From Patescibacteria group bacterium (GTDB taxonomy: Bacteria > Patescibacteriota > Patescibacteriia > Patescibacteriales > UBA12465), in contig JBAYKT010000002.1 of the NCBI GenBank assembly GCA_041664445.1, positions 8,629-72,628 on the forward strand: DNA of 64,000 nt. The letters run 5' to 3'. Shown one piece after another: positions 12,368 to 35,897 of this stretch (its first letter is position 1; each line of letters opens with the position of its first letter). The position numbers and the translations under genes are program-made. The notes under the pieces were generated by a model, which did not search any database, was not told the origin of the DNA, and saw only the letters and a list, made by a program, of their open reading frames with translations.

Positions 12368-12383
12368 GGTTTTATTATAGCAA

Positions 12384-12416
12384 TAAAAAAGGGGCTTGAA
12401 AATCAAGCCCCTTTAA
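12384..12416 (-). terminator. Strong intrinsic terminator after secF: perfect stem ggggcttga/tcaagcccc followed by T7 on the minus strand
   Basis: 9-bp GC-rich perfect stem with a 3-nt loop. The minus-strand read gives tttttttattgc after the stem. Confidence 0.6.
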
Positions 12417-15707: not shown

Positions 15708-15726
15708 AGATCACGACTAAATAAAA

Positions 15727-15753
15727 ACTCCGCACGTGGCGGAGTTTTTTTAT
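15727..15753. terminator. Bidirectional intrinsic terminator between clpP (+) and the convergent surface-protein genes (-)
   Basis: actccgc-acgtg-gcggagt hairpin flanked by an A-run upstream and T7 downstream. Confidence 0.6.
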
Positions 15754-15772: not shown

Positions 15773-16831
15773 TTATTGATACTGAGCTAAATTATAATTT
15801 TTCTGGAAAGAATTAATAATCATTTTAAAAATATTAGGATAAGCCAGGCGATCGCTTAACGCCGGAATATAAGAAATGATATAAATATTTTCACGATCAT
15901 TATCCGTCAGATAAAAGTTCAAACCATCTTCACCCATAATTCCTTCCCAGGTAATTCCTTTTTGTAGACGATTACTATCAACGGTTTCCGAAGGAAAAGT
16001 GACGCTATACCAATCGCTGATACTCTGAATTTTTGGATTTCCCTGAACGGAAATCTGCATTAGAGAATTATCGGGAGCGGAAATAATCGTCGCGTAATCA
16101 TTGTTTAAAGATTTAAGCGTCCAAGCGGTCGGATAATAAATTTCATATTTACCAGTTTGATTTTGATATTTGCTTAAGTAAGTACTGGCGGTGAGCTTAT
16201 CCTTGCCTGTAGGATTATAGCCTTTCCCTAATTCTGATAAATCACCATAATTATCGCCATCACTATCAGGAAGCATGGCATCCGTTCCTAAGGCCAGTTC
16301 TTCATCATCACTCAAGCCATCAACATCGGTATCTAAAAGCGGCGGAGTTTCAATGGTTAACGGTATTTCTTCAATAGTCGTGGAGGCCGTGGAAGTTGAT
16401 TCTATAGTCTCAGGATTAATCATTTCAATAACGCTGGGAGCTATCTCAACAACCGCCGTACTGGAAGCCGTGGAAGTTGAAACTAGAGGTGTTGTTTTTT
16501 CAGGTACGATAGGTGCCGAGGAAACAATCGGCGCGGCGGAAATTGGTTCTTGAGCGGCTGGCTTGATTATAAAGCGATAACTTAAATAAACTAGAACACC
16601 GACAAAAACTAGGCCTAGGCCGATAATCACGATGCCAACTGTTTGGTGCTTATTTTTATTATCAGACACCGCTAAAAATTGCGAACCGGAACCGGAATTG
16701 GCCGTTTTAATATTACCACTGACAAATGAGCGGGTAGGGACAGTGGGCATGTTATGGACAATCAATTCTTGATTAACCCGGACCGCCGTCGCATCGTCGA
16801 TATTTGTTTTTTTATTATTTTTTCCTAACAT
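15773..16831 (-). CDS. Type-II membrane-anchored surface protein. It has a cytoplasmic N-terminus, a single TM, a Ser/Thr/Pro-rich stalk, two thrombospondin-type-3-like Ca-binding repeats and a C-terminal globular domain of about 150 aa.
   Basis: TM helix VGIVIIGLGLVFVGVLVYL, repeats DTDVDGLSDDEE and DSDGDNYGDLSE (DxDxDGxxDxxE). Confidence 0.6.
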   Translation of the reverse strand: MLGKNNKKTNIDDATAVRVNQELIVHNMPTVPTRSFVSGNIKTANSGSGSQFLAVSDNKNKHQTVGIVIIGLGLVFVGVLVYLSYRFIIKPAAQEPISAAPIVSSAPIVPEKTTPLVSTSTASSTAVVEIAPSVIEMINPETIESTSTASTTIEEIPLTIETPPLLDTDVDGLSDDEELALGTDAMLPDSDGDNYGDLSELGKGYNPTGKDKLTASTYLSKYQNQTGKYEIYYPTAWTLKSLNNDYATIISAPDNSLMQISVQGNPKIQSISDWYSVTFPSETVDSNRLQKGITWEGIMGEDGLNFYLTDNDRENIYIISYIPALSDRLAYPNIFKMIINSFQKNYNLAQYQ

Positions 16832-16833
16832 AT

Positions 16834-17040
16834 CTAATTAAGCACCAAAAAAATAATCACCGCGAATAACATTAAAATTACTCCGCCTAAAATAAACCAG
16901 AGCTTAAGATTACCGGCACTCGTTTTGGGCATTGAATGGACTCCAATCGCTAAACGCGAAGGACGAATTTGAGGAGCCGCTTTACTGAGAGTAGCAGGCG
17001 CCGGATTTTTTTCTGGTGTCAGGTTAGCGCCATTAGTCAT
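16834..17040 (-). CDS. Small (68 aa) C-terminally membrane-anchored protein, hypothetical
   Basis: ATG start, single C-terminal TM (LWFILGGVILMLFAVIIFLV), packed between two surface-protein genes with a 2-nt gap. Confidence 0.35.
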   Translation of the reverse strand: MTNGANLTPEKNPAPATLSKAAPQIRPSRLAIGVHSMPKTSAGNLKLWFILGGVILMLFAVIIFLVLN

Positions 17041-17045
17041 AAAAA

Positions 17046-17801
17046 TTATTTGATTACATTACCTGGCATTTTGGCTCCGACAGCGTTAGGATCATATCCG
17101 CCTCTAACTTCCTGACCATCCGGATAAGTATCGCCATCAGTGTCAGCTTTTAAGGGATTGGTTTTGTAGATTTTTACTTCTTCATAATCACTTAGACCGT
17201 CGTTATCAGTATCAATTAAATTAATATTAGTACCGGCAACTAATTCTTCGGAATCAGTTAAGCCATCGCTATCAGAATCAACGGGAGCAGCATTAACAGG
17301 AACGGTTGCTGTCTCCTCAATATTAATTTCCGTCGTGGTGGTGGCACTTGGCGAAATCGCTTCTGCAGTTGTAGTATCAACGCTAGGAATTTCAGTCACA
17401 AAAGTTGAGCTGCTAGTTGTTTCGGTATTAGTTTCTACAACATTATTATCTTGATTAGCAGAAGTTGAAGTCGCTACCGGTGTTCTGACTACTGGCACAG
17501 AGCTAGTATCAATCGGCTCTGCTTTAAAAAATTTATTATAAGCCAAAAATCCCAACAAACCTAAAATAACTACCACCATCAAAATAACGGCGATTTTAAA
17601 ACCAGAACCGCCTCTTTTAGGCTCCGATCTTAGAGACTCGGCAGAAAGTCCGCTCGGAGCTGTTAAGCCGACACGTTGAGTCATAATTTCGGCCGGCGCT
17701 TGCGGTCTTTGATTGTTATTGGACACGTTATCGGTTTCGGCGAAAATATCGTCAACCGGCTGATGTCCTGATTGGTTAGCGTTGTCGAGGTTGTCAAACA
17801 T
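17046..17801 (-). CDS. Membrane-anchored surface protein with a Ser/Thr-rich stalk and three thrombospondin-type-3-like Ca-binding repeats
   Basis: TM IAVILMVVVILGLLGFLAY, then repeats DSDSDGLTDSEE, DTDNDGLSDYEE and DTDGDTYPDGQE. Paralog-like of 15773-16831. Confidence 0.6.
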   Translation of the reverse strand: MFDNLDNANQSGHQPVDDIFAETDNVSNNNQRPQAPAEIMTQRVGLTAPSGLSAESLRSEPKRGGSGFKIAVILMVVVILGLLGFLAYNKFFKAEPIDTSSVPVVRTPVATSTSANQDNNVVETNTETTSSSTFVTEIPSVDTTTAEAISPSATTTTEINIEETATVPVNAAPVDSDSDGLTDSEELVAGTNINLIDTDNDGLSDYEEVKIYKTNPLKADTDGDTYPDGQEVRGGYDPNAVGAKMPGNVIK

Positions 17802-17872
17802 ATTTTTGTATAAGTAACTTGATTATCTTTAAAGTATAGCCAATAAGAAAACTTTTGGCTAATAATTTATTT

Positions 17873-18229
17873 TTATTGTTGCACTGATTGGGTGGCCGGC
17901 CGCATCATATCGGGATCAGCAATGCGACTAGGGTCTAAAATAATATCGGCGTCTTTACGAATAACGCGATAAACTTCGGTTTTACCAGATTCATCAGTTT
18001 TTAAAACTTGAATTTTAGAATCAGCTGGCAAGTTAAGACTAGACTTTTCCTCAGCACTCATAAACTCCGGGGCCGGTAGTGGGTTAATTGCTCCGGATTG
18101 AGAAAGATTGTCGGCGTTCAATTTATTATTACGGATTAAAATAAAAACCAAGATACCAATGATAACGATTACAGTTATCAAACCGATTATAATAATTTTT
18201 TTATTCTTATTTAACATATTATGCAACAT
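17873..18229 (-). CDS. Small N-terminally anchored membrane protein (118 aa), hypothetical
   Basis: N-terminal TM KIIIIGLITVIVIIGILVFILI, located immediately upstream of the giant secreted protein. Confidence 0.45.
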   Translation of the reverse strand: MLHNMLNKNKKIIIIGLITVIVIIGILVFILIRNNKLNADNLSQSGAINPLPAPEFMSAEEKSSLNLPADSKIQVLKTDESGKTEVYRVIRKDADIILDPSRIADPDMMRPATQSVQQ

Positions 18230-18250
18230 ATTTTTTAACTACGGTTCTCC

Positions 18251-21200
18251 TTAATTGCAAGACTCGTTAGTAATTAATACTTCTCCGTCCATGCAATTGG
18301 CGGTAGCGGTACACGTATTAGGCCCGGCAACTTTAGTTACTGTTTGTGTGCTGTTCGGACCGCCGCTTTCTAAAACGCCATGATTATAATCATCAACTGT
18401 TCCGGCAATACAATTAGCTAAACAGACATTATAATAACCAAAAGTTGATAGATACCAATTGCCACTGGTACAGCGATAACCGGGGTTAGCGATGGGGCCA
18501 GTTGTTCCCGTATTTGTTACAGCTCCATTAATACTACAAGTAATGATGGTGCTGTAATACCCGCCTTCCGGATGAAAAGCGACATTAGTTTTAACTTCAT
18601 AGTTAGAACCATATTTAATGGCCGGATAAGAATAGCCGTCGATAACTCCCTGGGGGCAAGTTGGAATCAAAGTACATTGATTATTAGTGCAAGTATAATC
18701 GGTAGTATTAGCACAGGCACAAGTGCCATCGCAACCATCGGTGCCGCAATAATTAGCCGGGCAGGAAGGGGTACAGGTATTAGCATCGGCAACACAAACC
18801 CCCTGTTGGTCAAGGACCCAATCACAGCCACCAGGAACATTGGCTCCCGGACAAGAATAGTCGTCATATTGAGCACACTCAGCGCCATAGTTGCCGGTTT
18901 GACCACTTTCCATAGATTCACAATGGCCGTAAGCACCTTCACAATGCTGACCCGTGGGGCAAGTACTGTTCCAAGTACTGTCGCAGGTAGCTCCCGGTGG
19001 CGGAGTAAAGACTGGCTTCTTAACACAAAGCCCATTTTCGTTCATTGTACCATCTAAAACGGTGCTGCCCGTGGTTCGACAATCATCTTGATAACAACGA
19101 TTGGCTGCAAAATCTCCAGTACAAGTCCATTGAATCCGAGTTCTCCAACCTCCTAAATCGGTCCAGACTTGCTTGCACTGACCGGAAGAACGGTAGCTTA
19201 GAGGAGTTAACTTATTTTGAAAACCAATCGGACAATAGGTGAACTTGGCAGAAGCAGCGCTAATGGCGCTAGAAGCATCAGAAGCCCACTTACTAATACA
19301 TCTGGTGTTATCTAACTTAACAATACTGCAATCGCTTAAAGGATCGGGGGTTTTGACTCCTTCATTGGAATTATAGCAAAGCCTAGTTCCTTCAGAATAA
19401 TTATTATTTATTTGGGCGCTAGTAAAATTAAATAATGGCTGTTTATGAGGATCAACCCAAGTTTGATAATTTTTATTAGCTAAAACCGCATCGCCTTCAG
19501 CAACAGATACGACTCGCGCGTCTTTCTCTACAATCGGCCAGCATTTTTTCTGACAAACACCAGAGCTAGTACATTCATATCCCAGGTCGCAATACAAACC
19601 ATTATTACAATCCAGCGGCACTTCTTCCCCTTCGCTTAAAGTTTGGTCGGCGCCAAAATAATTAGGATCACAATCAAAGGGGCAGTTATCAATGTTTTCA
19701 TATAAAGTGTTATTGATTTTAAGCTGACAATAAGTGTCGCCACAGAAACCGCCACCGTCTAGCGGGGATTTAAAAATACAATAATTACTGCCAGTAATCG
19801 GATAAGGAGTAGAGGCGATTGAAGTCGTGTTGCAAGCGTACTGAACATTTTTATTGCTACCAGCCACACTAGTCGCAACATTACTGCTGCCATCGCAAGC
19901 TTCTTGACCATCATTCCTAACGCCGCCGCGACCTTCGGTATTAGGCTTTTCAATTACTCCGTCGCCGCAATAAGTATTAACGTCTAAAATAAAACTTTTT
20001 TCCGTAGCCGTGCCATATTCGTTAACCGCCTTAATTCTTACTTCTTGGTCAACTCTAGCCACAACCGTGTTTCCTTCCAAATAAACGGCGTTTTGATTGT
20101 TAGCACTAGCGGAAAGATTAAGCCCGGCGGGCATCGGTGAAGTAACCGAATAAGTTAAAGTATGGTTACCCTGAACGGTTGATCCTAAACTGCATTTATA
20201 TGCATAATTTAGACGCGACTGATTGGCGCAATTAAAATCTAGCACCGGCTTATCGACAATTATTTTAATGATAAAGTCATCAGTCACTGGGTTTCCAGCA
20301 GCATTAGTCACTTGAACGCGATAACGGCTTTCAACATCATCAGTAAATTTCTGAGCAGTTGAGATAACGCCTTGATAATTTACTTTTTGACGATTAAGAC
20401 CCTCAGTACTGGAAGTTCTGGTTATTCCCGGCATTTGTAAAATATTCGGACCGCTTACTAAAATAATGGCGAATGAAGGTGCGTTACCACCACCGGAAAC
20501 ATAAAAATTATAATTAAAGGGCACGGTTGGATCTAGATGATAAGTATAATCTTCGGCTTGAGCAGCTGAAGACAGAGAACTAATTTCAATACGTGTGGTT
20601 GTTGAAACGGAAGCGCCATTGCTATCTGTGATGGTGATACCGACGGGATACAAACCGGCACTACCGGCGCGAGTAGCAAAAATCTTTTTTTGATTAATAT
20701 CACTAGTATCTTTAATAATTGGCGGTGCTCCCTGCCAACCAGGCCAAGAACCGGCTAACGGCTGCAAGCTCCAAGTGAGAGAATCGCCGTCAGGGTCGAC
20801 GGCCTGCACAAAACCATTATATTCATTTCCAGAAATACCTTTTAGGGCTAGACTGGTAATTACCGGGGCAGAGTTAGAAGCATTCCCCGAAGCTGAAATA
20901 CCAGTTTCGGTAACACAGGAACTAGCAGTCGGATCATTAGGAGAAAAAGTATAATTAGGACCGGCGTGAGTTTCTAGCACTGCACATAAATTATAATCGG
21001 AGCCGGTGTCGTTAGTTCCATAGACCAGAGCATAACTATCTTTGGGTAATTTTAAATAAGCTCCCACCGGATCATAAACAAATTTTTTGTTACTATCGTC
21101 CCAACAAGTTTTAGAATTGAATCCCGGGCAAGCCCCCAAGCGATTAATCGGATCGACTAGCGCCTGCTTAATGGCCAGCGTCGGAATCAAAATATCACTC

Positions 21201-21913
21201 CAGCTCGGCCACAAAGAAACGCTTTTACCAGACAAATAAGTACCAGCACTAAGCAGTGGATAGCGACCATTAACCTTTTTATAACTAGCCAAAGCTTCTT
21301 TAATCTCTTCTAATTTTCCGATTCTTTTTAAATCACGAATTATCTTAGCCTTCAAGCTGCCGCAGAAAAAACTGGCCGGGCAATCTTCGTCAACCGTGCA
21401 ATTTTTAGGCTCCTTAAGAGCACAAGTATCATTATTAGAACAAAATTGATTAGAGGCGCAATCAGAATCTTGCTCGCATTTCAAAGAGGAAATGGAACAA
21501 GTAGAAGTTTCTAATGGCAAATTATCATTAAATTTCCAGTGGGAAATTAACTGCCCCAAAATATCAACGGTTTTAACATTATAATCCTGATTATAAGAAA
21601 TTAGATAAATATTGGTGTAGATAACCTTAGCATAAGTGTCCGCATTAGCAGCATTAACATAAACGGTGCGGCCATCACGCAAGGCCTCATAACCGTCAAC
21701 GGTTAAAGACTGTGGGGAGCCGGAAAAACCCTGGCTCTCGTACCAACGATAGATACTATAGTGATTGGGATTAGGAACAATTCTGACGCCAATGGCGTCG
21801 CTATTTTGTTCTTGAGCAGAAACTTTAAATACTGCCCCCGCTAAAAGATAAACAAAAACAACCCCAAGCACAAACAGTGAGCTGCTAGTTCTTACAATCT
21901 GGCTGTTTTTCAT
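18251..21913 (-). CDS. Giant (1220 aa) secreted Cys-rich extracellular protein with a signal peptide and a cadherin-like/VCBS-type repeat
   Basis: Signal peptide ...GAVFKVSAQEQ. Very many Cys throughout. DPDGDSLTWS cadherin-like motif. Uninterrupted 3.7 kb ORF. Confidence 0.8.
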   Translation of the reverse strand: MKNSQIVRTSSSLFVLGVVFVYLLAGAVFKVSAQEQNSDAIGVRIVPNPNHYSIYRWYESQGFSGSPQSLTVDGYEALRDGRTVYVNAANADTYAKVIYTNIYLISYNQDYNVKTVDILGQLISHWKFNDNLPLETSTCSISSLKCEQDSDCASNQFCSNNDTCALKEPKNCTVDEDCPASFFCGSLKAKIIRDLKRIGKLEEIKEALASYKKVNGRYPLLSAGTYLSGKSVSLWPSWSDILIPTLAIKQALVDPINRLGACPGFNSKTCWDDSNKKFVYDPVGAYLKLPKDSYALVYGTNDTGSDYNLCAVLETHAGPNYTFSPNDPTASSCVTETGISASGNASNSAPVITSLALKGISGNEYNGFVQAVDPDGDSLTWSLQPLAGSWPGWQGAPPIIKDTSDINQKKIFATRAGSAGLYPVGITITDSNGASVSTTTRIEISSLSSAAQAEDYTYHLDPTVPFNYNFYVSGGGNAPSFAIILVSGPNILQMPGITRTSSTEGLNRQKVNYQGVISTAQKFTDDVESRYRVQVTNAAGNPVTDDFIIKIIVDKPVLDFNCANQSRLNYAYKCSLGSTVQGNHTLTYSVTSPMPAGLNLSASANNQNAVYLEGNTVVARVDQEVRIKAVNEYGTATEKSFILDVNTYCGDGVIEKPNTEGRGGVRNDGQEACDGSSNVATSVAGSNKNVQYACNTTSIASTPYPITGSNYCIFKSPLDGGGFCGDTYCQLKINNTLYENIDNCPFDCDPNYFGADQTLSEGEEVPLDCNNGLYCDLGYECTSSGVCQKKCWPIVEKDARVVSVAEGDAVLANKNYQTWVDPHKQPLFNFTSAQINNNYSEGTRLCYNSNEGVKTPDPLSDCSIVKLDNTRCISKWASDASSAISAASAKFTYCPIGFQNKLTPLSYRSSGQCKQVWTDLGGWRTRIQWTCTGDFAANRCYQDDCRTTGSTVLDGTMNENGLCVKKPVFTPPPGATCDSTWNSTCPTGQHCEGAYGHCESMESGQTGNYGAECAQYDDYSCPGANVPGGCDWVLDQQGVCVADANTCTPSCPANYCGTDGCDGTCACANTTDYTCTNNQCTLIPTCPQGVIDGYSYPAIKYGSNYEVKTNVAFHPEGGYYSTIITCSINGAVTNTGTTGPIANPGYRCTSGNWYLSTFGYYNVCLANCIAGTVDDYNHGVLESGGPNSTQTVTKVAGPNTCTATANCMDGEVLITNESCN

Positions 21914-21948
21914 AATATTATCATTTAGTATTATTCCCTAAATTTATA

Positions 21949-24900: not shown

Positions 24901-27663
24901 ACTGCCGAATCCCGCGCCATCATCAGTTGTATCCTGACCGCAGGTTCCCTTGCATTCCAAAGGCGCGCAACAATCTTGAGCGCTATTTTCTATACGGCAA
25001 CAACAATCACAGCTAGCCCCCTCGACGGAGACACAAGAATCAGGCTGAGAAATATCCGGATTACTTTCGCAAACAGAACCAGCGGGACAAATGGTATCGG
25101 AAACGCAACGGCCGCCAGAGCCCAATTGTGCGCAACTTAAACCAATAGCACAAATATCACAAGCTGAAGCCGTATCAACGCAAATATTATTAGAGCCTCT
25201 AACCCAAGCATCTGGACAAGAGGTATTAGTTTTTGTTTCCCACTTACCACCGGAATTACAAGTTAAGGACAAAGAAACATCCTGATTATTAATTCTGAAA
25301 GTTTGAGTTTTTGGCATACTGCAAACACCAGCACTACCATCTTTAACACATTTATTAAGCGTATCGTCATAAGTACAAGGAGCACCAAAAACTCCACAGC
25401 CAGTTACCGAAGCGCAGGAAAAATCACAAGTAGCGACTGTGGTTTTAGTGCCACCGGCATAAGGCGAGCAGGCTCCAGGAACATTAGGACAAGTAGCATT
25501 GACCTGACAAGCACCATAATAATCGGCCAAGGTAGCACAACTTTCCGTAGGATCGCTAGGATTGACAACAAATCCCGTATTAAAGTTCCATTCAAAAACG
25601 GAAGTCGGAATATCAATTAAACAAGCGGCTAAGTTAGCAACACAAGTTCCTTTCTTATAGGTATTACCCGGACAACAAACCTGGCCAGGACATTCAAGGT
25701 CTGAAGAACAAGCACTGATTTCGAAGTTTAATTCATTTCCCCATTCACCATTCTTTACTACTTTAACCGGACCAGTGATGGATTCGGCGGGAACATCCAC
25801 GGGAACGATATCAGCACCATTGTCTTGAGAAATAACACCATAAACTTGCTTGGCAGGATTAAACTGAACTAAAGAGTCATGCCCTACCTGACCTAAATAT
25901 TCGCCATAAACTTTGACTGGAGTAGATACACCTCCCTGTCTAGGTTCTAATTTACAAAGACTTGTTTTTAAAGATAAGGCATCATCAACTCTAAAAATAT
26001 TAGGATTTAATTGTTGACTATCGATAGTCTTACTATTGACTGTCATCCTAATCAAATAACTACCATTGGCTAGACCGTCCGGCACCTTAACTACCACCTG
26101 CTTATCGCTCCAGACCGAACTGGCGCAAACCGGCGGAAAACTATAATTAGCTTCGGCGCTAGCAAAATAAACATGGGAGCTTCCCTGCGCGCCGCCAAAA
26201 CCGCTGCCGGTAATCGTTACATATTGCCCGGCTACTCCTTGAGCCGGCGAGAAAGAAATAATGAAAGGACCATCATTTGGGTCAGCTTCTTTAACAAATT
26301 TTAAATAATTGCTACGCTCTTGGTTGCCGCTGATGTTATTAACCACAAAACTACCGGATTCTCCGGAACGAATATTGGGCGTAGCCGCCGTTCCCGATAA
26401 GCCGCTAGGGTGACTGAAATTAGAATCTAAACCCTGAACATTACTTTGGTAATTACCAAAATAAGCTTGGCCGGAATAAAGATTAATTCCTTGATAGGAA
26501 ACCGAAGAACTTAAAGCGCCTTTATCAGGACTAATTAAGCATAATCCCGGACGAGAAATACTATTAGCGATAAAATCTGGAATGATAGGACCATACTCAT
26601 CATTGGTAATATCTTCCGAGCCGTCTTTAGTAAGCACCTTGATAGCACCGCTTACAACTCCGGTTGGAACCGCAATAATTATTTGGTCATCTTGCCAAAA
26701 ATTAACACAAACCGGATTTATTTCCGAAGGATTACGTCCATTTAAAGAGCTACCCATGAAAACAACTTGGCTTTGGCCAGCAACATATTCGCCAAAATTC
26801 TTTCCCGAAATAGTCAGAAAATTATTAGCCGCGCCATTGGGTGTATCTAAATTACAACTAGTGGCACAATCGGTGTCGGTATCGCAAGCCTGATTGTTAT
26901 TTTCATTACAGAATCCGCCTAAAGGACTGACGGCAGTAATTACTGGCGGCCCAAAACAAGTACAAGTGGCGGCATCACAAGATAAATACTGCGCGCACAT
27001 ATTATTGTCAGCGTCGCAAGTCGCATTACTGACATCGGCATCGCAAGATTCGCCAGCTCCTGCTTTTGGCTGACAGGCACAATTACTGTCACAATAATCC
27101 GAAGGGGCACACATGTTATTTTCCATTTGACAGCCGGGATTAGGACTGGCATCACAACTTGTTTGATGAGGATTAATACTACAATCGGAACCAACACAGC
27201 CACCCCAAGAACCGTCTACACAGGCCATTGACCCGCCGCAACCGCAAGAAGAAACTTGTCCGTTAGTACATAAATTGGGGCCGCCATTACCGCTGATTGC
27301 TCCATATAATTTATTGATAACAAAGGTGGCAATCGCCCAAGAAGCTAAGATAACCGCCAAACCGATACTAGCGCTTACCAAGATTTTTTTAGCTTGGCTG
27401 ATTTTATCTTCTTCACCATTAGAAGTCATCCATAAAAAGCCGGCATAGATTATTAGGCCCAGAGCAATTACTCCCAAGAAACCAAGCGCAATATTAATAA
27501 TTCGACCAACCATTTCGCGTGGATCGCCATCGGCTAAAGCGCCGTTCAAACCATTATTTACCGCCTCAGTGCCAAAGTCTTGGGCAAATACTAAACGCCA
27601 AGCAAAAATACCAATGACTAGCACTATTAATGAAACAAGCTTTTTGCTTAATTTTGTTTTCAC
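21949..27663 (-). CDS. Giant (1904 aa) surface protein. The N-terminus is a signal peptide plus a VirB2/TrbC-like two-helix membrane hairpin of about 125 aa. It is followed by a huge Cys-rich extracellular region with C-terminal FN3-like domains.
   Basis: N-term ...LVFAQDFG|TEAVNN...DPREMVGRIINIALGFLGVIALGLIIYAGFLWMTSNGEEDKISQAKKILVSASIGLAVILASWAIATFVINKLYGAISGNGG. FN3-like PPQAPIGLNVEDKGDTIKFTWQ... at the C-terminus. Uninterrupted 5.7 kb ORF. Confidence 0.8.
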   Translation of the reverse strand: MKTKLSKKLVSLIVLVIGIFAWRLVFAQDFGTEAVNNGLNGALADGDPREMVGRIINIALGFLGVIALGLIIYAGFLWMTSNGEEDKISQAKKILVSASIGLAVILASWAIATFVINKLYGAISGNGGPNLCTNGQVSSCGCGGSMACVDGSWGGCVGSDCSINPHQTSCDASPNPGCQMENNMCAPSDYCDSNCACQPKAGAGESCDADVSNATCDADNNMCAQYLSCDAATCTCFGPPVITAVSPLGGFCNENNNQACDTDTDCATSCNLDTPNGAANNFLTISGKNFGEYVAGQSQVVFMGSSLNGRNPSEINPVCVNFWQDDQIIIAVPTGVVSGAIKVLTKDGSEDITNDEYGPIIPDFIANSISRPGLCLISPDKGALSSSVSYQGINLYSGQAYFGNYQSNVQGLDSNFSHPSGLSGTAATPNIRSGESGSFVVNNISGNQERSNYLKFVKEADPNDGPFIISFSPAQGVAGQYVTITGSGFGGAQGSSHVYFASAEANYSFPPVCASSVWSDKQVVVKVPDGLANGSYLIRMTVNSKTIDSQQLNPNIFRVDDALSLKTSLCKLEPRQGGVSTPVKVYGEYLGQVGHDSLVQFNPAKQVYGVISQDNGADIVPVDVPAESITGPVKVVKNGEWGNELNFEISACSSDLECPGQVCCPGNTYKKGTCVANLAACLIDIPTSVFEWNFNTGFVVNPSDPTESCATLADYYGACQVNATCPNVPGACSPYAGGTKTTVATCDFSCASVTGCGVFGAPCTYDDTLNKCVKDGSAGVCSMPKTQTFRINNQDVSLSLTCNSGGKWETKTNTSCPDAWVRGSNNICVDTASACDICAIGLSCAQLGSGGRCVSDTICPAGSVCESNPDISQPDSCVSVEGASCDCCCRIENSAQDCCAPLECKGTCGQDTTDDGAGFGSCSGCANVGTTVAEHDAACNCAGHGGQYCSITAQNPGGICTDCSGLAGLSSCSEHNAACCFDANRTAATGDDSCRGGSGTSISANPADPNFGYCGYYNCFSATTPPIGDPATCASSTPVKIGTYKDTPACVDGCAANPGQDFCSLFNGQKDECTLAPSCCFDQATATCKSGSQITSGADLGYCAYYDCQTDASGNSTCDQNPKTSGDFNNLSTCSTRCGNAEGGVGQDCVSSSATATCNFGICNFPGHSCLTESGTTATDISDCGACCCNPADPTACQTTEAPDLYCQPDKGNCSGADRGLCCGCRNDGDCGNAATVGCGIDTCCDSRPAVTGSVPASGTTNVCRNSVIKVTFNKQMDIASFSANTLLMEEMNYGGAVCPSGTFAYEGDGNFAAVNQTWFTNIFGKLKSYISQLFGNQALADLPDQNKLYCSFQGSISGEYSGDETVLNFTPNKLLTPEAKYFLIVKGDEDLNSQSGVISLSGIGLNGEGIEGVEGAALSFNNKNYKNSYIVQFKTLSDKGANSGVCAISQVKIAPESYLFNTTENSLDENDANFQDKTFDTKRDKDKVFKASAYSADGQVIQPITGYFWDWKFNLSDASVASIASIGPDKVLLAAKDGITDGETKLSATIDMVRFLDSNSSVNSGCACTDDVCSSNCRNAFSAGDNLSGNANLYVFICNNPWPPVNTNGTWYPWSDNCTGSIGGTCNNFNYKFYYCRDAGAPGTIDDLPAITDRAVIRGQSATLICSSDSSTCAGLNSACGADQNGDGHLDGICIWNVLKESYFFREAGIGEAAFETVTDTGTGGDVTFTWFAANAPTVSYKIYYGESGKALTKSQEFKLQDYCVPFSSVYKCTAHISSLKNGQAYDFRLTGISANRVESTMSDAATMTPTDQAPPQAPIGLNVEDKGDTIKFTWQTNNALFYRVYRGVKSNLYGESYDSVNNASSLSWDKAKLSTGNNYFAISALDSNGNESTKSAEIIFFK
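27280..27663 (-). repeat. Copy 1 of a roughly 380-bp nucleotide-level repeat encoding the shared N-terminal membrane module of the two giant paralogs
   Basis: Compare 27421-27500 (gaagtcatccataaaaagccggcatagattattaggcc...ccaaccat) with 30124-30205 (gaagtcatccataaaaatccagcgtagattattaaacc...ccaaccat). Protein identity over the module is very high. Confidence 0.6.
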
Positions 27664-27680
27664 AAATTTATGTTTTTAGA

Positions 27681-27711
27681 TAACCAAAAATGGCAATTAT
27701 TGACAATTGCC
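27681..27711 (-). terminator. Hairpin ggcaatt-attgac-aattgcc overlapping the stop of the 887-aa gene, followed on the minus strand by atttttggtt. Possible weak terminator or attenuator between the two giant genes.
   Basis: 7-bp stem with a short U-run. Weaker than the other terminators in the window. Confidence 0.35.
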
Positions 27712-30360
27712 GTTAACTAGCGAACTGGTGGCCACTCCGAAACAACATGAAGGACTCTGAGGAGTCGCCGCACAGCCCGGACCGGAGCTGGGTTTAAAGC
27801 AATTTTGAAAAATATTTTTTACACCAGAACCAATTTGCGAGTCATAAGTTATTGACTCTAAAAATGGAGAATGCTTTATTTTTGCAATAGTAATATCCGC
27901 AATTCCGTCCAATGGCAAGGAATCGACATCGGAATTATCCAACCAAAATCCCAGCGGTGTTGGCTCTGAACTCTTTAAATTTATAAATCTATGCAAAACC
28001 GGACTAGTTCCACTATCAACTATTTCGCCGCCGGAACGTAAAGTGCTGGACATCATTAAATTATTAAAAGTAATTTCTATCGGATCAGTTGGCGGAATAT
28101 CATTTTGGCCATTAGCAGGATTAATACTGGTAATCTCGGGTGGTGTAGTTTCTATTTTGTCATTTATAAAGAAGGCGTTACGATAGCTATCGCGATTGCT
28201 TCTGTTGCTAGGGAAATTATCGCTGAAAAAGCTAATTGGACCCTCAACAATTGTGTCCCGATTACCATCCAAAGAGTTAAGCGCCGCGTCAATAATACCA
28301 TCTAACTGGAGCGGGTTCGCGCTAGGATAGTTGCGACCGTTAACGTCTTGACAGGAACGATAGCCTAATTGATTTAAGGCGCAGGTTTTGAAAGGGCTAT
28401 AAGCGGCGCAATCAGCGTCACTGGCACAAACTTTCATATTGGCGGCCTTAAGCTCAACCGATAAATTACTATTAGCCGGCAAGCAGTATATTTTTTCACC
28501 GCAACCGTTAATTCCGCACTCATTATCAGAAATAAATTCTACAGTCCTATAGCTACCGCTAACATTAAAGCGTCCACTGACATAATTTCCGCGACAAACA
28601 TAGGCATCACATCGATAAGAGCGGCAATCAGCATTACTGGCGCAAACTGATCCGTCTACTTTACTGGTTGAAGAGGCGTTAACAACTTGGATATAATTAG
28701 CGACTTCAGAGGCAGTCCCGGATAATGTTAGCGGATTCATCGCCTCGTTAAAGTTAACTTTAATTATAGAATTCATTGGTGAGTCTGGACCACCTTTAAC
28801 CTGGCTGGCGAGTTGTCGATCAACCCCGCCCGTAAAGGCGCTGAGACTCAAGGCATTAGTATTACTGGTATTTAAACTTAAATTGTTGCCAGCTGCGCCA
28901 GCAACTTTGGCGGTTAGCAAAACTCGATTACCGGACCGATTAACAATAATAGCCGAGTTGCCACTTAATTGCGCTTGAATATTGGCCGCCTGGATACCGA
29001 TGTCGCAAGTTCCCGGAACAACAATATTATTATTTCCGCCGCTAGTCGCAAAAACATAAACTTCATTGCCGACGCTTAAGGTGTCAGCTAATTTTTCAGG
29101 ACTAATAGTTATCTCCCAAGAATCTCCGGCCGCATGACCAGTAGTTTTAAGACTAAAGTAACCATCAAAAACTACCGTATTTTGACCATCAAAGTCAGAC
29201 ACTCCCAACAAGGCGTTAGTATTACCATTAAATATTTGTGCCTTATCCGGAGTCGCCGCTGGGACAATCACCTTAAACTTGTTAATCAAACCATGATAAT
29301 CAAGCACGACTTCCGCATTAGGCAAAACGCTGATAACACTAGCTGGAGCATAAGTCTGAGGACAACTATTTACAAAAATATCAGCGCTGGCATTTAGAGC
29401 CGGAGTATCGATATTCAATAAATCGCGTTCATTATCCGGACGCGGATAAAGAGAATTAAACATTACTTGGGGTGGCGTTAAATCCAAATTAGTGCTGACT
29501 TCAAATCCCCATTGGAAGCCATTATTGCTACAAGTGCTGAACATGGATGTTCCGTCGTCCTTCTTGAAATCATTAGTTAATTTGATGTCATATTCAGTAT
29601 TGGCACTCTCTGAACCTAAATAACTTAAGGGGGATAACACTAAAGTTAGCTTATCAGCCGAGACGGCCACTGAAACATCAGTTACATTAGTATTTGGAGT
29701 TGGGCAAGAATTAGTACAAGCATCACCCAAACTGCTTTTAAAAATCCGTATAGCCTGAGGGTTAATCAGGGAGCAGGCGGCATTATCGCAAGCGCAGGCC
29801 GCACCGCTAGCATTTACGCACACTGAATCAAGCCCGATAACTTCTTTAAAGCTAATAATAATTGCGGAATTACGAGCGACATTATTCTGGCTATTTTCTG
29901 GGTAAACCATATCAACGGAACAGGCGCCCATTGCCCCAAATCCAGAGTTAGCTAAATTATTGCCGGAGTTCTGAATAGGATTACCTTCAACTCCAGAAAT
30001 TGCTCCCGCTAAGCGTGAGATAATAAAAGTGGTAATTGCCCAAGCAGATAAAGTAACGGCTAAACCGATGGTGGCATTCTTAAGAATTGTTTTTGCCCGG
30101 CTAATCTTATCTTCTTCACCACCCGAAGTCATCCATAAAAATCCAGCGTAGATTATTAAACCTAAAACAATCACCCCCAAGAAACTGAGGATGATTTGAA
30201 TAATACGGCCAACCATCGCACGCGGGTCACCGCCGGCAAGGGCGATAGAATTATTAACGGCGTTAATTCCGAAATCCGCTTGAGCAGACACGAAAGCGAC
30301 CGGCAAAAGAGCGGCGATAGTTACGAAAAGACCGTAAATTATTTTATTTTTTTTCAACAT
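27697..30360 (-). CDS. Giant (887 aa) surface protein, paralog of 21949-27663. It has the same VirB2/TrbC-like N-terminal hairpin and a Cys-rich extracellular region.
   Basis: N-term ...FVSAQADFG|INAVNN...DPRAMVGRIIQIILSFLGVIVLGLIIYAGFLWMTSGGEEDKISRAKTILKNATIGLAVTLSAWAITTFIISRLAGAISGVEG. Many Cys. Confidence 0.8.
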   Translation of the reverse strand: MLKKNKIIYGLFVTIAALLPVAFVSAQADFGINAVNNSIALAGGDPRAMVGRIIQIILSFLGVIVLGLIIYAGFLWMTSGGEEDKISRAKTILKNATIGLAVTLSAWAITTFIISRLAGAISGVEGNPIQNSGNNLANSGFGAMGACSVDMVYPENSQNNVARNSAIIISFKEVIGLDSVCVNASGAACACDNAACSLINPQAIRIFKSSLGDACTNSCPTPNTNVTDVSVAVSADKLTLVLSPLSYLGSESANTEYDIKLTNDFKKDDGTSMFSTCSNNGFQWGFEVSTNLDLTPPQVMFNSLYPRPDNERDLLNIDTPALNASADIFVNSCPQTYAPASVISVLPNAEVVLDYHGLINKFKVIVPAATPDKAQIFNGNTNALLGVSDFDGQNTVVFDGYFSLKTTGHAAGDSWEITISPEKLADTLSVGNEVYVFATSGGNNNIVVPGTCDIGIQAANIQAQLSGNSAIIVNRSGNRVLLTAKVAGAAGNNLSLNTSNTNALSLSAFTGGVDRQLASQVKGGPDSPMNSIIKVNFNEAMNPLTLSGTASEVANYIQVVNASSTSKVDGSVCASNADCRSYRCDAYVCRGNYVSGRFNVSGSYRTVEFISDNECGINGCGEKIYCLPANSNLSVELKAANMKVCASDADCAAYSPFKTCALNQLGYRSCQDVNGRNYPSANPLQLDGIIDAALNSLDGNRDTIVEGPISFFSDNFPSNRSNRDSYRNAFFINDKIETTPPEITSINPANGQNDIPPTDPIEITFNNLMMSSTLRSGGEIVDSGTSPVLHRFINLKSSEPTPLGFWLDNSDVDSLPLDGIADITIAKIKHSPFLESITYDSQIGSGVKNIFQNCFKPSSGPGCAATPQSPSCCFGVATSSLVNGNCQ
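29975..30360 (-). repeat. Copy 2 of the roughly 380-bp repeat encoding the shared N-terminal module
   Basis: See copy 1 at 27280-27663. Confidence 0.6.
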
Positions 30361-30405: not shown

Positions 30406-30453
30406 CAATGTTAGTCTTATTATAGCATAAATCAGATAAATGAAAAACTTTTT

Positions 30454-35300: not shown

Positions 35301-35897
35301 TTAATCCGTTATTTTGCTGAGAGCTTTACGGCGCGCTAACATCATAATGGTAAAACTACTATTTGATAAAATAAGATATATTGGATATAACAACGTGGTC
35401 GCGTTATAAGCATCTAAAGCAAATAGAACAAATATAAATTTAACGGAAGATATCAGCCACGTAAATAGTGTTTCCTCGTAAGGTTTATAATAAGTTTTTC
35501 TAAAAGTAGGAATAAAGGCCAGCGCGTCAGAAATAGTAATTAAAATAACTGCCAATAAAGGATTGGAAGTTAAAATCCAAGCAATCAAGCCCAAAAGTGA
35601 GCCCCCAAAAGCAATCCAATCGGTAATGGTGATTTTCTTTTCCCCCTGGAAGGCGGCTAAAATAGTAATCAAAATACTAATCACAACAGCGACTCCCATC
35701 ACCCAAGCTCCCGGACCGGCGCCTTTTACTATTTGCGCCGCAAAAACTATACCCGCCCCCAAACTCCACATTAACCAGGAAAAGACATGAGGTTTAGTCT
35801 TTTTTTTCAAAATATCTCTCAGATAAGGAATATAGCCAATAACGCTTATCACTGAAGCAAAAATTCCAATAATTACTTTATAATTTTCCATAAGCAT
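35301..35897 (-). CDS. Integral membrane protein (about 198 aa) with an internal two-fold repeat. Resembles a duplicated PQ-loop/SemiSWEET-like 3-TM unit.
   Basis: Repeat 1 is YIPYLRDILKKKTKPHVFSWLMW and repeat 2 is FIPTFRKTYYKPYEETLFTWLIS. It is the tandem paralog of the next gene. Confidence 0.5.
   Translation of the reverse strand: MLMENYKVIIGIFASVISVIGYIPYLRDILKKKTKPHVFSWLMWSLGAGIVFAAQIVKGAGPGAWVMGVAVVISILITILAAFQGEKKITITDWIAFGGSLLGLIAWILTSNPLLAVILITISDALAFIPTFRKTYYKPYEETLFTWLISSVKFIFVLFALDAYNATTLLYPIYLILSNSSFTIMMLARRKALSKITD

What the first reader, a model, noticed from the sequence alone, without database searches (positions are those of the whole stretch)
15773..30360. 15-kb all-minus-strand cell-surface island of giant Cys-rich extracellular proteins and small Ca-binding anchored proteins
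Seven consecutive genes encode membrane-anchored or secreted proteins only. Four are small proteins (352, 68, 251 and 118 aa) with TM anchors, Ser/Thr stalks and DxDxDGxxDxxE repeats. Three are giants of 1220, 1904 and 887 aa with extreme Cys content, cadherin-like and FN3-like modules, and no enzymatic motifs. The block lies between clpP and rel, outside housekeeping operons. For an organism with CPR-like features, which are often episymbionts, this looks like a host-attachment or surface-appendage system. The unusual membrane-anchoring mode of two giants, described separately, suggests it may be an undescribed fibre or pilus-like apparatus rather than generic adhesins.
Basis: partly seen in the sequence, partly recalled or inferred. 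Interest (0 to 1): 0.75.

Follow-up and report, generated by a model that had tools for sequence, protein, structure and literature searches.

The report
Giant surface proteins on conjugative-pilin anchors
This seven-gene operon of a tiny groundwater bacterium (Candidatus Falkowbacteria) makes long, disulfide-rich surface arms attached to the kind of small two-helix subunit that normally builds conjugative (type IV secretion) pili; this arrangement is conserved across a large group of ultra-small bacteria, and I found no paper in the searched library that describes it.

Summary
Seven tightly spaced minus-strand genes (15773-30360) all encode secreted or membrane proteins, and three are large and Cys-rich.

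The "unusual anchor" of the 887- and 1904-aa proteins is a VirB2/TrbC-type T4SS pilin module: Pfam PF18895 above its cut-off, and a signal peptide followed by a two-helix hairpin. It is the best-conserved part of the 887-aa family.

The block is not an island. In about 60 species-level genomes the order rel / 887 / 1904 / 1220 / 118 / 251 / (68) / 352 / clpP is kept. Much more distant lineages (HisS about 40% identical) keep a four-part core between hisS-lepB and ftsA-ftsZ: a short pilin fusion, a giant pilin fusion, and two Ca-binding TSP3 membrane proteins. In those lineages the conserved N-terminal region of the 1220-aa protein lies inside the giant pilin, so the 1904- and 1220-aa proteins are parts of one unit.

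The modelled 887-aa ectodomain is a string of Ig-like domains, closest to Bacillus-type S-layer proteins. No VirB4 or VirD4 lies in the window.

Best reading: a conserved surface fibre or coat built on "modular" VirB2-type pilins. Whether a T4SS polymerises them is open. It is a new variant of a known kind. Host attachment is untested.

The parts
30419..30446 (-). Promoter-like site (TTTTCA, 16 nt, TG-TATAAT) upstream of the first gene of the operon.
   Evidence: Consensus scan, 10 of 12 matches with an extended -10. This is a consensus match only; function was not shown.
27697..30360 (-). g887, the short modular VirB2-type pilin: signal peptide (aa 1 to about 27), pilin hairpin (aa 28-121), low-confidence linker, then an all-beta ectodomain of Ig-like domains with Cys-rich inserts (aa about 145-880).
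   Evidence: - PF18895 scores 27.7 bits against a cut-off of 26.6; Big_5 has E = 5e-11.
- More than 120 full-length orthologue clusters at 49-91% identity all carry PF18895 plus PF13205.
- The AF2 model has pLDDT 81.6 and helices at 46-78 and 83-121.
- The best Foldseek matches are the S-layer proteins SbsC, Sap and EA1.
29998..30279 (-). Pilin module of g887 (aa 28-121).
   Evidence: This is the most conserved part of the family: 66% mean pairwise identity, against 55% for the ectodomain, 31% for the linker and 40% for the signal peptide. It is 57% identical to the same region of g1904; the DNA repeat is 72% identical.
21949..27663 (-). g1904, the giant modular VirB2-type pilin: signal peptide, pilin hairpin (aa 29-125), Cys-rich modules, TIG domains, a large Cys-rich region (aa about 650-1240), Big_5, and fn3-like domains at the C-terminus. 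Cys content 6.4%.
   Evidence: - PF18895 scores 28.9 bits against a cut-off of 26.6; TIG E = 1e-10; Big_5 E = 5e-9; fn3 is weak.
- Cys distribution.
- Orthologues of 1465-2409 aa occupy the same position in 61 of 66 loci.
27289..27579 (-). Pilin module of g1904 (aa 29-125).
   Evidence: A profile of the two modules finds 31,785 cluster representatives at E <= 1e-3 and 9,968 at E <= 1e-10.
18251..21913 (-). g1220, a secreted partner: signal peptide; a highly conserved N-terminal region (aa 36-335); three Ig-like (He_PIG/PKD-like) domains; a CGDG Cys-rich domain; and a variable Cys-rich C-terminus.
   Evidence: - 478 homologues; the conserved part is aa 1-750, with many invariant residues in aa 36-335.
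- The AF2 model of aa 30-345 has pLDDT 84.
- The N-terminal region aligns inside the giant pilins of distant lineages, for example P0288 aa 2164-2395 at E = 2e-33.
20909..21808 (-). Conserved N-terminal region of g1220 (aa 36-335), the part that is fused into the giant pilin in other lineages.
17873..18229 (-). g118, a small protein with an N-terminal TM anchor and a conserved C-terminal small domain. It has no TSP3 repeats.
   Evidence: TM segment at aa 12-30. Detected in 36 of 54 informative loci. Family consensus.
17046..17801 (-). g251, a bitopic membrane protein: cytoplasmic N-terminus with the conserved VDDIFAETD motif, a TM segment, a Ser/Thr stalk, and Ca-binding TSP3 repeats (aa 175-239, nt 17085-17279).
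   Evidence: TSP3_bac E = 2e-16. TM segment and motifs. Orthologues with the same motif occur in distant cassettes.
16834..17040 (-). g68, a small membrane protein with a cytoplasmic GVHSMPK motif and a C-terminal TM segment. It has no ectodomain.
   Evidence: TM segment at aa 49-67. The motif RLSLGxHxMPKTS is conserved in 22 orthologues and resembles the motif of g352. tblastn detects it in only 19 of 54 informative loci, and it is very short.
15773..16831 (-). g352, a bitopic membrane protein: cytoplasmic (V/I)HxMP motif (aa 21-29), TM segment (aa 65-83), Ser/Thr stalk, TSP3 repeat (aa 167-200, nt 16232-16333), and a conserved C-terminal alpha/beta domain (aa about 215-352).
   Evidence: -.
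- It is paralogous to g251 across the TM segment, stalk and TSP3 region.
- PsbP hits are weak. One orthologue carries a precomputed PF01789 hit.
- Orthologues occur in distant cassettes.
15723..15749 (.). Bidirectional intrinsic-terminator-like hairpin (11-bp stem flanked by A and T runs) between the convergent genes clpP and g352.

Best explanation
**What it is.** The block is one operon that builds a conserved cell-surface assembly on two "modular" VirB2/TrbC-type pilins.

**Shown.**
- g887 and g1904 each start with a Sec signal peptide and a two-helix pilin hairpin of the T4SS pilin family.
- They continue as long arms of Ig-like domains (Big_5, TIG, fn3-like) and Cys-rich modules.
- g1220 is a secreted piece that in other lineages forms part of the giant pilin. 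It therefore belongs physically with g1904.
- g251 and g352 are membrane proteins with conserved short N-terminal motifs, Ser/Thr stalks and Ca-binding TSP3 repeats. g68 shares the g352 motif.
- The core is kept at the same chromosomal place across deep Patescibacteria lineages: short pilin fusion, giant pilin fusion, g251-like protein, g352-like protein.

**Inferred mechanism.**
- Sec exports the pilins and signal peptidase I cuts at A|Q.
- The hairpin sits in the membrane with both termini outside, as in VirB2 and TraA, so the arms project from the cell.
- The two highly conserved hairpins associate with each other and with the small membrane proteins. Together they form a membrane-embedded base, perhaps a short oligomeric stub.
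- Ca2+ bound by the TSP3 repeats and disulfides stiffen the outer part.
- The result is a permanent fibre or coat on the cell surface, used for contact with other cells or surfaces, for envelope integrity, or for both.
For: **Pilin homology.**
- PF18895 is above its gathering score in both giants, and NF045849 is hit below its cut-off.
- All 120 listed g887 orthologues carry PF18895, and two also hit TrbC PF04956.
- A tandem-module relative hits both PF18895 and TrbC.
- The experimentally studied Saccharibacteria T4SS pilins hit the same Pfam families.
- AF2 predicts helices of 33 and 39 residues.

**The module is more than a greasy anchor.**
- It is the best-conserved region of g887: 66% identity, against 55% for the ectodomain, 40% for the signal peptide and 31% for the linker.
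- It is the only region shared by g887 and g1904.

**It is a system, not loose genes.**
- Gene order is kept in 59 of 62 and 53 of 54 informative loci, although the proteins have diverged to 27-50% identity.
- The same core cassette lies between hisS-lepB and ftsA-ftsZ in loci with GC content from 27% to 54% and HisS identity of 38-43%.
- The fusion of the g1220 region into the giant pilins links g1220 to g1904.

**Extracellular fibre character.**
- High-confidence all-beta domain string.
- Best matches are SbsC (E = 3e-8), Sap and EA1.
- Cys content is 3-6%.
- TSP3 repeats are present.

**Against every subunit of a pilus carrying such an arm.** Ectodomains of 770 to about 4,300 residues on each subunit would crowd a VirB2-type filament. 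This rests on my own knowledge of F- and T-pilus geometry.

**No T4SS genes nearby.** No VirB4, VirB6 or VirD4 is found in the 64-kb window or in the flanks of related loci.
Against: - There are no expression, localisation or interaction data.
- The pilin assignment rests on HMM scores only 1-2 bits above the cut-off for the two window proteins. The family-wide hits are consistent, but no solved pilin matches by sequence.
- High conservation of the hairpin would fit true polymerisation by a T4SS equally well.
- The roles of the four small proteins are inferred only from their architecture and co-conservation.
- Function (attachment or coat) is not resolved.
Confidence: 0.5

Rival explanations
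1. The two proteins are true T4SS pilus subunits. The VirB4-type T4SS encoded elsewhere in the genome extracts the hairpins from the membrane and polymerises them, probably as rare or tip subunits among small pilins. The pilus then presents the Ig-like, Cys-rich arms as adhesins, by analogy with modular type IV pilins.
For: - The homology to T4SS pilins and the strong conservation of the hairpin are as above.
- The module is closely related to modules in multi-gene pilin arrays.
- VirB4 is present in most Patescibacteria, including Falkowbacteria, and pilin genes lie away from virB4 in about 40% of assemblies (PMC12102498).
- One cassette-bearing genome (GW2011_GWF2_43_32) is VirB4-positive.
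- T4SS pilins are essential in S. epibionticum (PMC10633639).
- Modular pilins are a proven principle for type IV pili (PMC8179133).
Against: - No T4SS gene is linked to the cassette in any locus examined.
- The cassette instead travels with division and export genes.
- One cassette-bearing draft genome (CG1_02_37_21) is listed as VirB4-negative. It is incomplete, so this is weak evidence.
- Arms of up to about 4,300 aa are hard to pass through or pack on a VirB2-type filament (my own knowledge).
- The fixed pairing with TSP3 membrane proteins suggests a stationary complex.
Confidence: 0.25
2. It is an S-layer-like envelope coat with no pilus-related function. The hairpin is only a membrane anchor that replaces SLH or LPXTG anchoring. 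The Ig-like arrays tile the surface with Ca2+-dependent partners. The role is structural (cell shape or protection), which would explain the core-genome position next to ftsAZ and secDF.
For: - The top structural matches of the g887 ectodomain are S-layer proteins: SbsC at E = 3e-8, then Sap and EA1.
- Big_5 is the SbsA-type Ig domain.
- g887 keeps a very constant length (most orthologues 870-940 aa) and 49-91% identity across the lineage.
- The chromosomal position among envelope and division genes is conserved.
- Ca-binding repeats are present.
Against: - TM-scores are low (about 0.1), so the match reflects shared Ig-like domains, not a shared lattice design.
- No SLH or CWB2 domain was found.
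- Classical S-layer proteins have few Cys residues (my own knowledge), whereas these have 3-6%.
- A simple anchor would not be the most conserved part of the protein.
- The giant partner varies from 1,465 to 4,410 aa and can carry a GH39 domain. That looks like an interaction module, not a lattice.
Confidence: 0.2
3. These are generic adhesins on a variable or horizontally acquired surface island, and the pilin hit is a chance match of hydrophobic helices.
For: - The Pfam scores are close to the cut-off.
- GC content is slightly higher than in the flanks.
- The C-terminus of g1220 and the length of g1904 vary between genomes.
Against: - Synteny is conserved, flanks included, across about 60 species, and the core cassette is kept across deep lineages.
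- The hairpin has conserved polar motifs (DPR...GR, YAGFLWMTSGGxE) and invariant residues.
- A profile of the module retrieves 9,968 cluster representatives at E <= 1e-10, including tandem pilin arrays.
- There are no matches in plasmids or phages, no tRNA, and no DGR-like or other repeats.
Confidence: 0.03

Closest known systems
VirB2/TrbC-type T4SS pilins of Patescibacteria (Pfam PF18895 T4SS_pilin and PF04956; the pilin arrays of Ca. Southlakia epibionticum and TM7x; PMC10633639, PMC12102498)
   Same: - Same Pfam family.
- Sec signal peptide followed by a two-helix hairpin with a short charged loop.
- Same phylum.
- Paralogous copies lie side by side.
   Different: - The known examples are about 100-150 aa, sit in or near virB4 clusters, and are sequence-divergent within an array (average 25% identity).
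- Here the module carries 770-1,780 extra residues, and up to about 4,300 in relatives.
- It is not linked to any T4SS gene.
- It is strongly conserved.
- It is always paired with TSP3 membrane proteins.
Modular type IV pilins (PilB and PilC of Streptococcus sanguinis, CofB; Raynaud et al. 2021, PMC8179133)
   Same: Same design principle: a small pilin "carrier" module at the N-terminus, with a bulky functional module grafted on through a linker. Ig-like PF05345 modules occur in both.
   Different: It is an unrelated pilin class. Type IV pilins have a class III signal peptide cut by prepilin peptidase and a single hydrophobic alpha-1N helix. g887 and g1904 have a type I signal peptide and a two-helix hairpin.
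Gram-positive S-layer proteins SbsC, Sap and EA1 (PDB 4uj6, 9g93, 8opr)
   Same: The g887 ectodomain is a bead-on-string array of Big_5-type Ig-like domains, and these proteins are its best structural matches.
   Different: - No SLH cell-wall anchor.
- Cys-rich.
- Membrane-anchored through a pilin hairpin.
- No evidence for a lattice.
- Low global TM-scores.
Surface adhesins of Gram-positive conjugation systems (for example PrgB of pCF10)
   Same: Large surface proteins that could take the place of a pilus for cell-cell contact in a monoderm.
   Different: PrgB-type adhesins are LPXTG-anchored and encoded in the transfer operon, and none was detected in Patescibacteria (PMC12102498). The proteins here have no LPXTG motif, a different anchor, and no link to a T4SS.
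Bacterial thrombospondin type 3 repeat proteins (TSP3_bac PF18884; for example Myxococcus CglD and MtsD)
   Same: g251 and g352 carry the DxDxDGxxDxxE Ca-binding repeats.
   Different: Only the repeat region matches: scores of 15-34 bits against cut-offs of 400-800. The overall proteins are unrelated.

Membership tests
T4SS VirB2/TrbC-like pilin (PF18895 / PF04956) | Match to the family HMM above the curated cut-off. | tested here: met
   g1904 scores 28.9 bits and g887 scores 27.7 bits, against a cut-off of 26.6. All 120 listed orthologues carry PF18895, and two also carry PF04956. NCBIfam NF045849 is hit below its cut-off.
T4SS VirB2/TrbC-like pilin (PF18895 / PF04956) | Cleavable Sec signal peptide followed by two long hydrophobic helices joined by a short charged loop. 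| tested here: met
   Hydrophobic segments at aa 7-25, 53-71 and 96-114 in g887, with the same pattern in g1904. AF2 predicts helices at 46-78 and 83-121. The AxA|Q-type cleavage site was read from the sequence.
T4SS VirB2/TrbC-like pilin (PF18895 / PF04956) | Small protein consisting of little more than the pilin module (about 100-150 aa). | tested here: not met
   The proteins are 887 and 1904 aa. Relatives with a single N-terminal module reach 4,410 aa.
T4SS VirB2/TrbC-like pilin (PF18895 / PF04956) | Encoded with T4SS machinery genes (virB4, virB6, virB3). | tested here: not met
   No such domain occurs in any ORF of at least 90 aa that was scanned in the 64-kb window, nor in the flanks of loci L001, L002 and L082-L085. 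The rest of the genome was not searchable. Published tables list Falkowbacteria as mostly VirB4-positive.
T4SS VirB2/TrbC-like pilin (PF18895 / PF04956) | Polymerises into an extracellular pilus. | not testable with these tools
   This needs multimer modelling, cryo-EM or immuno-EM.
Modular type IV pilins (T4P) | Class III signal peptide (leader ending in Gly, then a hydrophobic alpha-1N helix with Glu5) processed by prepilin peptidase. | tested here: not met
   The N-termini of g887, g1904 and g1220 are type I signal peptides, and there is no N_methyl or T2SSG Pfam hit. A prepilin peptidase gene is in the window (9242-10006), but its substrate motif is absent from these proteins.
Gram-positive S-layer proteins (SbsC, Sap, EA1 type) | Array of Ig-like (Big_5/SbsA-type) domains. 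| tested here: met
   Big_5 has E = 5e-11. Foldseek gives SbsC at E = 3e-8 and Sap at E = 7e-6.
Gram-positive S-layer proteins (SbsC, Sap, EA1 type) | Cell-wall anchoring module (SLH or CWB2). | tested here: not met
   No such Pfam hit was found at E <= 0.1.
Gram-positive S-layer proteins (SbsC, Sap, EA1 type) | Self-assembly into a 2D lattice as the most abundant surface protein. | not testable with these tools
   This needs proteomics or cryo-ET.
Sortase-anchored (LPXTG) adhesins | C-terminal LPXTG motif, hydrophobic segment and positively charged tail. | tested here: not met
   The C-termini read ...VNGNCQ...EIIFFK and ...TNESCN. The only NCBIfam sortase-related hits are on g68, at E > 0.01.
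Mobile or variable genomic island | Flanking tRNA, integrase or repeats; patchy distribution; atypical composition. | tested here: not met
   - No tRNA.
- No repeats other than the paralogous pilin modules.
- Synteny is conserved, flanks included.
- No plasmid or phage matches.
- GC content is only 0.41-0.445, against 0.36-0.41 in the surroundings.

The most novel reading that the evidence does not exclude
The conserved hairpins of the short and giant proteins co-polymerise, either on their own or with the T4SS. They would form a new kind of surface organelle: a short VirB2-type filament or stub that carries Ig-like arms hundreds of nanometres long. This would be a conjugative-pilus-derived attachment fibre. 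It would be tied to the inner face of the membrane through the conserved cytoplasmic peptides of g352 and g68 ((V/I)HxMPK, which resembles the PilN INLLP peptide that binds the actin-like PilM) and of g251 ((D/E)D(I/M)F). It might thereby be linked to the FtsA/FtsZ division apparatus encoded next to it in distant lineages.
Probability: 0.15. Interest if true: 0.85.

Novelty: new variant of a known kind. Interest (0 to 1): 0.62.

Why it matters
VirB2-type pilins are regarded as small proteins. Their presence in monoderm Patescibacteria was itself a recent surprise, and their role there is unknown although they are essential (PMC10633639, PMC12857230).

This locus shows that the same module also serves as the N-terminal carrier of very large extracellular proteins. 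Of the 150 best representatives of the module family, 56 are 800 aa or longer and 35 are 1,400 aa or longer, up to 4,410 aa. One fixed pair of such proteins, with Ca-binding membrane partners, is a core and deeply conserved trait of Falkowbacteria and related lineages.

This gives three things:
- a concrete, testable candidate for the surface fibres or coats seen on ultra-small bacteria;
- a parallel, in the T4SS pilin world, to the "modular pilin" principle known for type IV pili;
- a reason to revisit censuses of Patescibacteria pilins that treat all PF18895 hits as small pilus subunits.

If the hairpins only anchor, this would be a mode of surface-protein anchoring for monoderms that I found no description of. 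If they polymerise, it would be a new kind of adhesive conjugative-type pilus.

Tried and rejected
- **AFDB Foldseek search of the g1220 N-terminal model.** The library was not available.
- **Sequence-profile searches of PDB.** The g1220 family gave only weak PKD-like Ig matches. The pilin module gave nothing.
- **Pfam on isolated g1220 segments.** No domain was found, only weak matches to Cys-knot families.
- **Genomic context of "small" relatives of the module (P0266, P0321).** They sit on contigs shorter than 2 kb and are probably gene fragments, so they were uninformative. P0245 (119 aa) is a split g887 orthologue.
- **Mobile-element reading.** No tRNA, no plasmid or phage match, and no DGR-like template/variable repeats.
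- **Homology of the small proteins to T4SS parts (VirB3, VirB8, TraM).** Only chance-level matches over TM segments were found.
- **Whole-genome check for VirB4 in the closest genome (CP066698.1).** This was not possible with the available tools. That genome is not in the part of the published table that is held.
- **JGI's name "RodZ" for g352.** I treated it as an annotation artefact of the TM segment plus low-complexity stalk.

Full report

Yes. ORF listing gives seven consecutive minus-strand ORFs at exactly the stated coordinates: 352, 68, 251, 118, 1220, 1904 and 887 aa. The gaps between them are 2-71 bp.

A promoter-like site with an extended -10 lies upstream of the first gene, at 30446-30419 (-). 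A strong bidirectional hairpin lies between the last gene and the convergent clpP, at 15723-15749. This fits a single 14.6-kb transcription unit.

All seven products have a signal peptide or a TM segment. Cys content is 4.9%, 6.4% and 2.9% in the three large proteins and zero in the four small ones.

Pfam finds no enzymatic domain. It finds TIG, Big_5, He_PIG (at its cut-off), weak fn3 and a very weak cadherin-like match.

The Ser/Thr stalk and the DxDxDGxxDxxE (TSP3_bac) repeats are present only in the 251-aa protein (E = 2e-16) and the 352-aa protein (weak hit, one strict motif). They are absent from the 68- and 118-aa proteins.

The flanking genes are clpP and secDF on one side and rel, hisS and lepB on the other.

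**2. What the "unusual anchor" is.**

[quoted passage not shown] They also match the NCBIfam pilin-like conjugal transfer family NF045849, below its cut-off.

Each protein has a signal peptide and then two long hydrophobic helices joined by a short charged loop. AlphaFold2 with a 66-sequence alignment predicts helices at 46-78 and 83-121, followed by a disordered linker and a confident all-beta ectodomain (mean pLDDT 81.6).

The two proteins are 57% identical over aa 3-147 and unrelated elsewhere. No other ORF in the window carries the module.

Within the g887 family the hairpin is the most conserved part: 66% mean pairwise identity, and 73% for the first helix. The ectodomain is 55% identical, the signal peptide 40% and the linker 31%. 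A plain membrane anchor would not be expected to behave this way.

The link between PF18895 and classical VirB2/TrbC is supported in three ways. Two g887 orthologues also carry PF04956. A tandem-module relative hits both families. The experimentally essential T4SS pilins of Ca. Southlakia epibionticum hit both as well.

**3. It is a conserved system, not an island.**

- g887 has more than 120 full-length orthologue clusters, about 880-920 aa and 49-91% identical. All have PF18895 plus Big_5. NCBI names them "pilin" or "Ig-like domain-containing protein" in Ca. Falkowbacteria or Patescibacteria.
- g1220 has 478 detectable homologues. They share a conserved core (aa 1-750) and have a variable Cys-rich C-terminus.
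- A scan of one genome per species found relatives of g1220 in 182 stretches, of which 79 loci were kept. The closest is Ca. Falkowbacteria CP066698.1.
- tblastn of all window proteins against these loci gave the following counts:
  - g887 then g1904 then g1220 in 59 of 62 loci with enough upstream DNA;
  - g251 then g352 in 53 of 54 loci with enough downstream DNA;
  - rel upstream in 59 loci and clpP downstream in 51.
- Median identities are 40-52% for the operon proteins, 79% for Rel and 87% for ClpP.
- In 61 of 66 loci with a pilin module, exactly two pilin-fused ORFs precede the g1220 homologue. One is about 870-990 aa and the other 1,465-2,409 aa.
- There is no tRNA, no repeat apart from the two paralogous pilin modules, and no plasmid or phage match.

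**4. The cassette is much older than Falkowbacteria.**

A profile of the two hairpins, searched against 1.84 billion cluster representatives, found 31,785 proteins at E <= 1e-3 and 9,968 at E <= 1e-10. Among the best 150:
- 56 are 800 aa or longer with a single N-terminal module;
- 35 are 1,400 aa or longer, up to 4,410 aa;
- about 50 carry 2-17 tandem modules.

The giants that I scanned carry Big_5, TIG, fn3 and DUF4215 domains, and in one case a GH39 glycosidase domain.

I looked up the genomic places of three giants (3,122, 4,410 and 3,520 aa). They come from contigs with GC contents of 43%, 54% and 27%, and with FtsZ 54-67% and HisS 38-43% identical to the window. All three show the same arrangement:
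- (lepB)-hisS-...-yqeY upstream; lepB is seen in two of the three lineages, the contig of the third ending just before hisS;
- a short pilin + Big_5 protein (595-698 aa);
- the giant pilin;
- a g251-like protein and a g352-like protein, plus in one lineage a further small TSP3 protein;
- ybeY-(dagK)-ftsA-ftsZ downstream, followed by nrdR in two of the three.

BLASTP confirms orthology for g887 (25-39% identity over the ectodomain), g251 and g352, and the N-terminal motifs are conserved.

The conserved N-terminal region of g1220 (aa 31-314) aligns inside these giants. Examples are P0288 aa 2164-2395 (37% identity, E = 2e-33) and P0274 aa 2318-2559. So in Falkowbacteria one giant has been split into g1904 and g1220, or in the other lineages the two have been fused. 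Either way they are parts of one physical unit.

The window keeps the same wider order: lepB, hisS, rel, [operon], clpP, secDF, Wzy_C-TPR, prepilin peptidase, ftsA, ftsZ..., nrdR.

**5. The individual parts.**

- **g887 ectodomain.** Foldseek against PDB ranks the S-layer proteins SbsC (E = 3e-8), Sap and EA1 first, ahead of Ig/FN3 receptors, LdtMt2 Ig-like domains and CopC. Global TM-scores are low, as expected for flexible domain strings.
- **g251 and g352.** They are paralogous across the TM segment, stalk and TSP3 region.
- **N-terminal motifs of the small proteins.** The segments before the TM helix carry short conserved motifs. These are (V/I)HxMP(K) in g352 and g68, and VDDIF / (D/E)D(I/M)F in g251. 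Both are also kept in the distant cassettes. That suggests cytoplasmic partners, but none was identified.

**6. Relation to T4SS.**

No VirB4, VirB6 or VirD4 domain is present in the window. All large ORFs are assigned to other functions. None is present in the flanks of the related loci either.

Published work reports the following:
- VirB4-type T4SSs occur in most Patescibacteria. VirB2-like pilins were found in 1,948 assemblies, near virB4 in 1,135 of them, and in arrays of 2-11 genes. No PrgB-like adhesins were detected (PMC12102498).
- In its genome table, Falkowbacteria (class ABY1) are mostly VirB4-positive.
- Of two cassette-bearing genomes that I could find in the table, one is VirB4-positive. 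The other, a 0.7-Mb draft, is listed negative.
- The studied Saccharibacteria pilins are small (genes of 381-417 nt) and essential (PMC10633639).

In the searchable library, PF18895 appears in only three papers, and none mentions large fusions. The "modular pilin" concept is published only for type IV pilins with class III signal peptides (PMC8179133).

**7. Most likely mechanism.**

What is shown:
- homology of the hairpin to T4SS pilins;
- the extracellular, Ig-like, disulfide-rich nature of the arms;
- deep co-conservation of the four core components;
- the fusion link between g1904 and g1220.

What is inferred: Sec exports the proteins and signal peptidase I cuts at A|Q. The hairpin then takes the VirB2-like topology, with both termini outside, so the arms project from the cell. 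The two conserved hairpins and the small bitopic proteins form a membrane base, stiffened outside by Ca2+ (TSP3 repeats) and disulfides.

I favour a stationary or short oligomeric base (confidence about 0.5) over incorporation into a long T4SS pilus (about 0.25), for three reasons:
- there is no genetic linkage to a T4SS;
- the pairing with membrane proteins is fixed;
- the arms are very large.

A purely structural S-layer-like coat (about 0.2) overlaps with the favoured reading, but it does not explain the conservation of the hairpin or the variability of the giant. A generic-adhesin or island reading is essentially excluded.

**8. Verdict.**

The finding is real and more interesting than a set of adhesins, but part of it rests on known ground. 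Patescibacteria VirB2-like pilins are published, and automatic annotation already calls these proteins "pilin".

Four points appear in none of the papers I could search:
- the giant modular form of the VirB2-type pilin;
- its fixed pairing (short plus giant) with TSP3 membrane partners;
- the split/fusion relation with g1220;
- the deep conservation of the cassette next to division and export genes.

I rate it a new variant of a known kind, with interest 0.62.

Noticed in passing
window 59824-62835 (+), with 58840-59820 (+): A 1003-aa protein carries two T2SSE (PilB-type ATPase) domains in tandem, so it is a fused double type IV pilus ATPase. It is preceded by a 326-aa ORF with no Pfam hit.
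   Followed up: no
window 10010-12406 (-), 44029-45339 (-), 9242-10006 (-): Two Wzy_C (O-antigen ligase / O-oligosaccharyltransferase-like) proteins are present. One is fused to TPR repeats and lies next to the prepilin peptidase gene. This Wzy_C-TPR gene is also kept downstream of secDF in related loci (L001, L002). It could glycosylate pilins or the Ser/Thr-rich stalks of g251 and g352.
   Followed up: partly
window 27692-27711 (-): An 8-bp hairpin followed by a T-run overlaps the stop codon of g887. It could be a partial terminator that gives the first gene higher expression than the rest of the operon.
   Followed up: no
window 16745-16771 (g352 aa 21-29), 16924-16944 (g68 aa 33-39), 17730-17756 (g251 aa 16-24): Short conserved motifs lie in the N-terminal, presumably cytoplasmic, segments of the small membrane proteins. 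They are (V/I)HxMP(K) in g352 and g68, and VDDIFAETD / (D/E)D(I/M)F in g251. Both are kept in cassettes of very distant lineages. The first resembles the PilN N-terminal INLLP peptide that binds PilM (from memory, untested).
   Followed up: partly
protein P0315 (1775 aa); P0280, P0242; locus L088 194-3941: Some proteins consist of 6-17 tandem PF18895 pilin modules ("pilin polyproteins"). One such protein lies in an array of five consecutive pilin genes. The same profile search retrieved 31,785 cluster representatives of the module.
   Followed up: partly
protein P0274 (3122 aa), locus L082 5875-15243: A giant modular pilin of a distant lineage carries a glycosyl hydrolase family 39 domain near its C-terminus (aa 2791-3060). 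The arms can therefore carry enzymes, although the window's proteins do not.
   Followed up: no
loci L031 9866-12907, L065 8615-10702, L079 9932-13294: Stand-alone paralogues of the g1220 family occur in other genomic contexts, without adjacent pilin fusions.
   Followed up: partly
loci L071 4567-9789, L078 4651-9954: These two genomes have only one pilin-fused ORF (1741 and 1768 aa) where the others have a short and a giant one. This could be a loss or a fusion of the short partner.
   Followed up: no
window 62840-63415 (+): A Translin-family protein (E = 1e-20) is encoded here. From memory, this family is mainly eukaryotic and archaeal.
   Followed up: no
window 51144-51650 (-), 35301-36492 (-), 45287-46168 (-), 47415-47945 (-), 53132-54127 (-): Several ORFs of 170-330 aa have no Pfam family. 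One has a weak TssO-like hit. They were not studied further.
   Followed up: no
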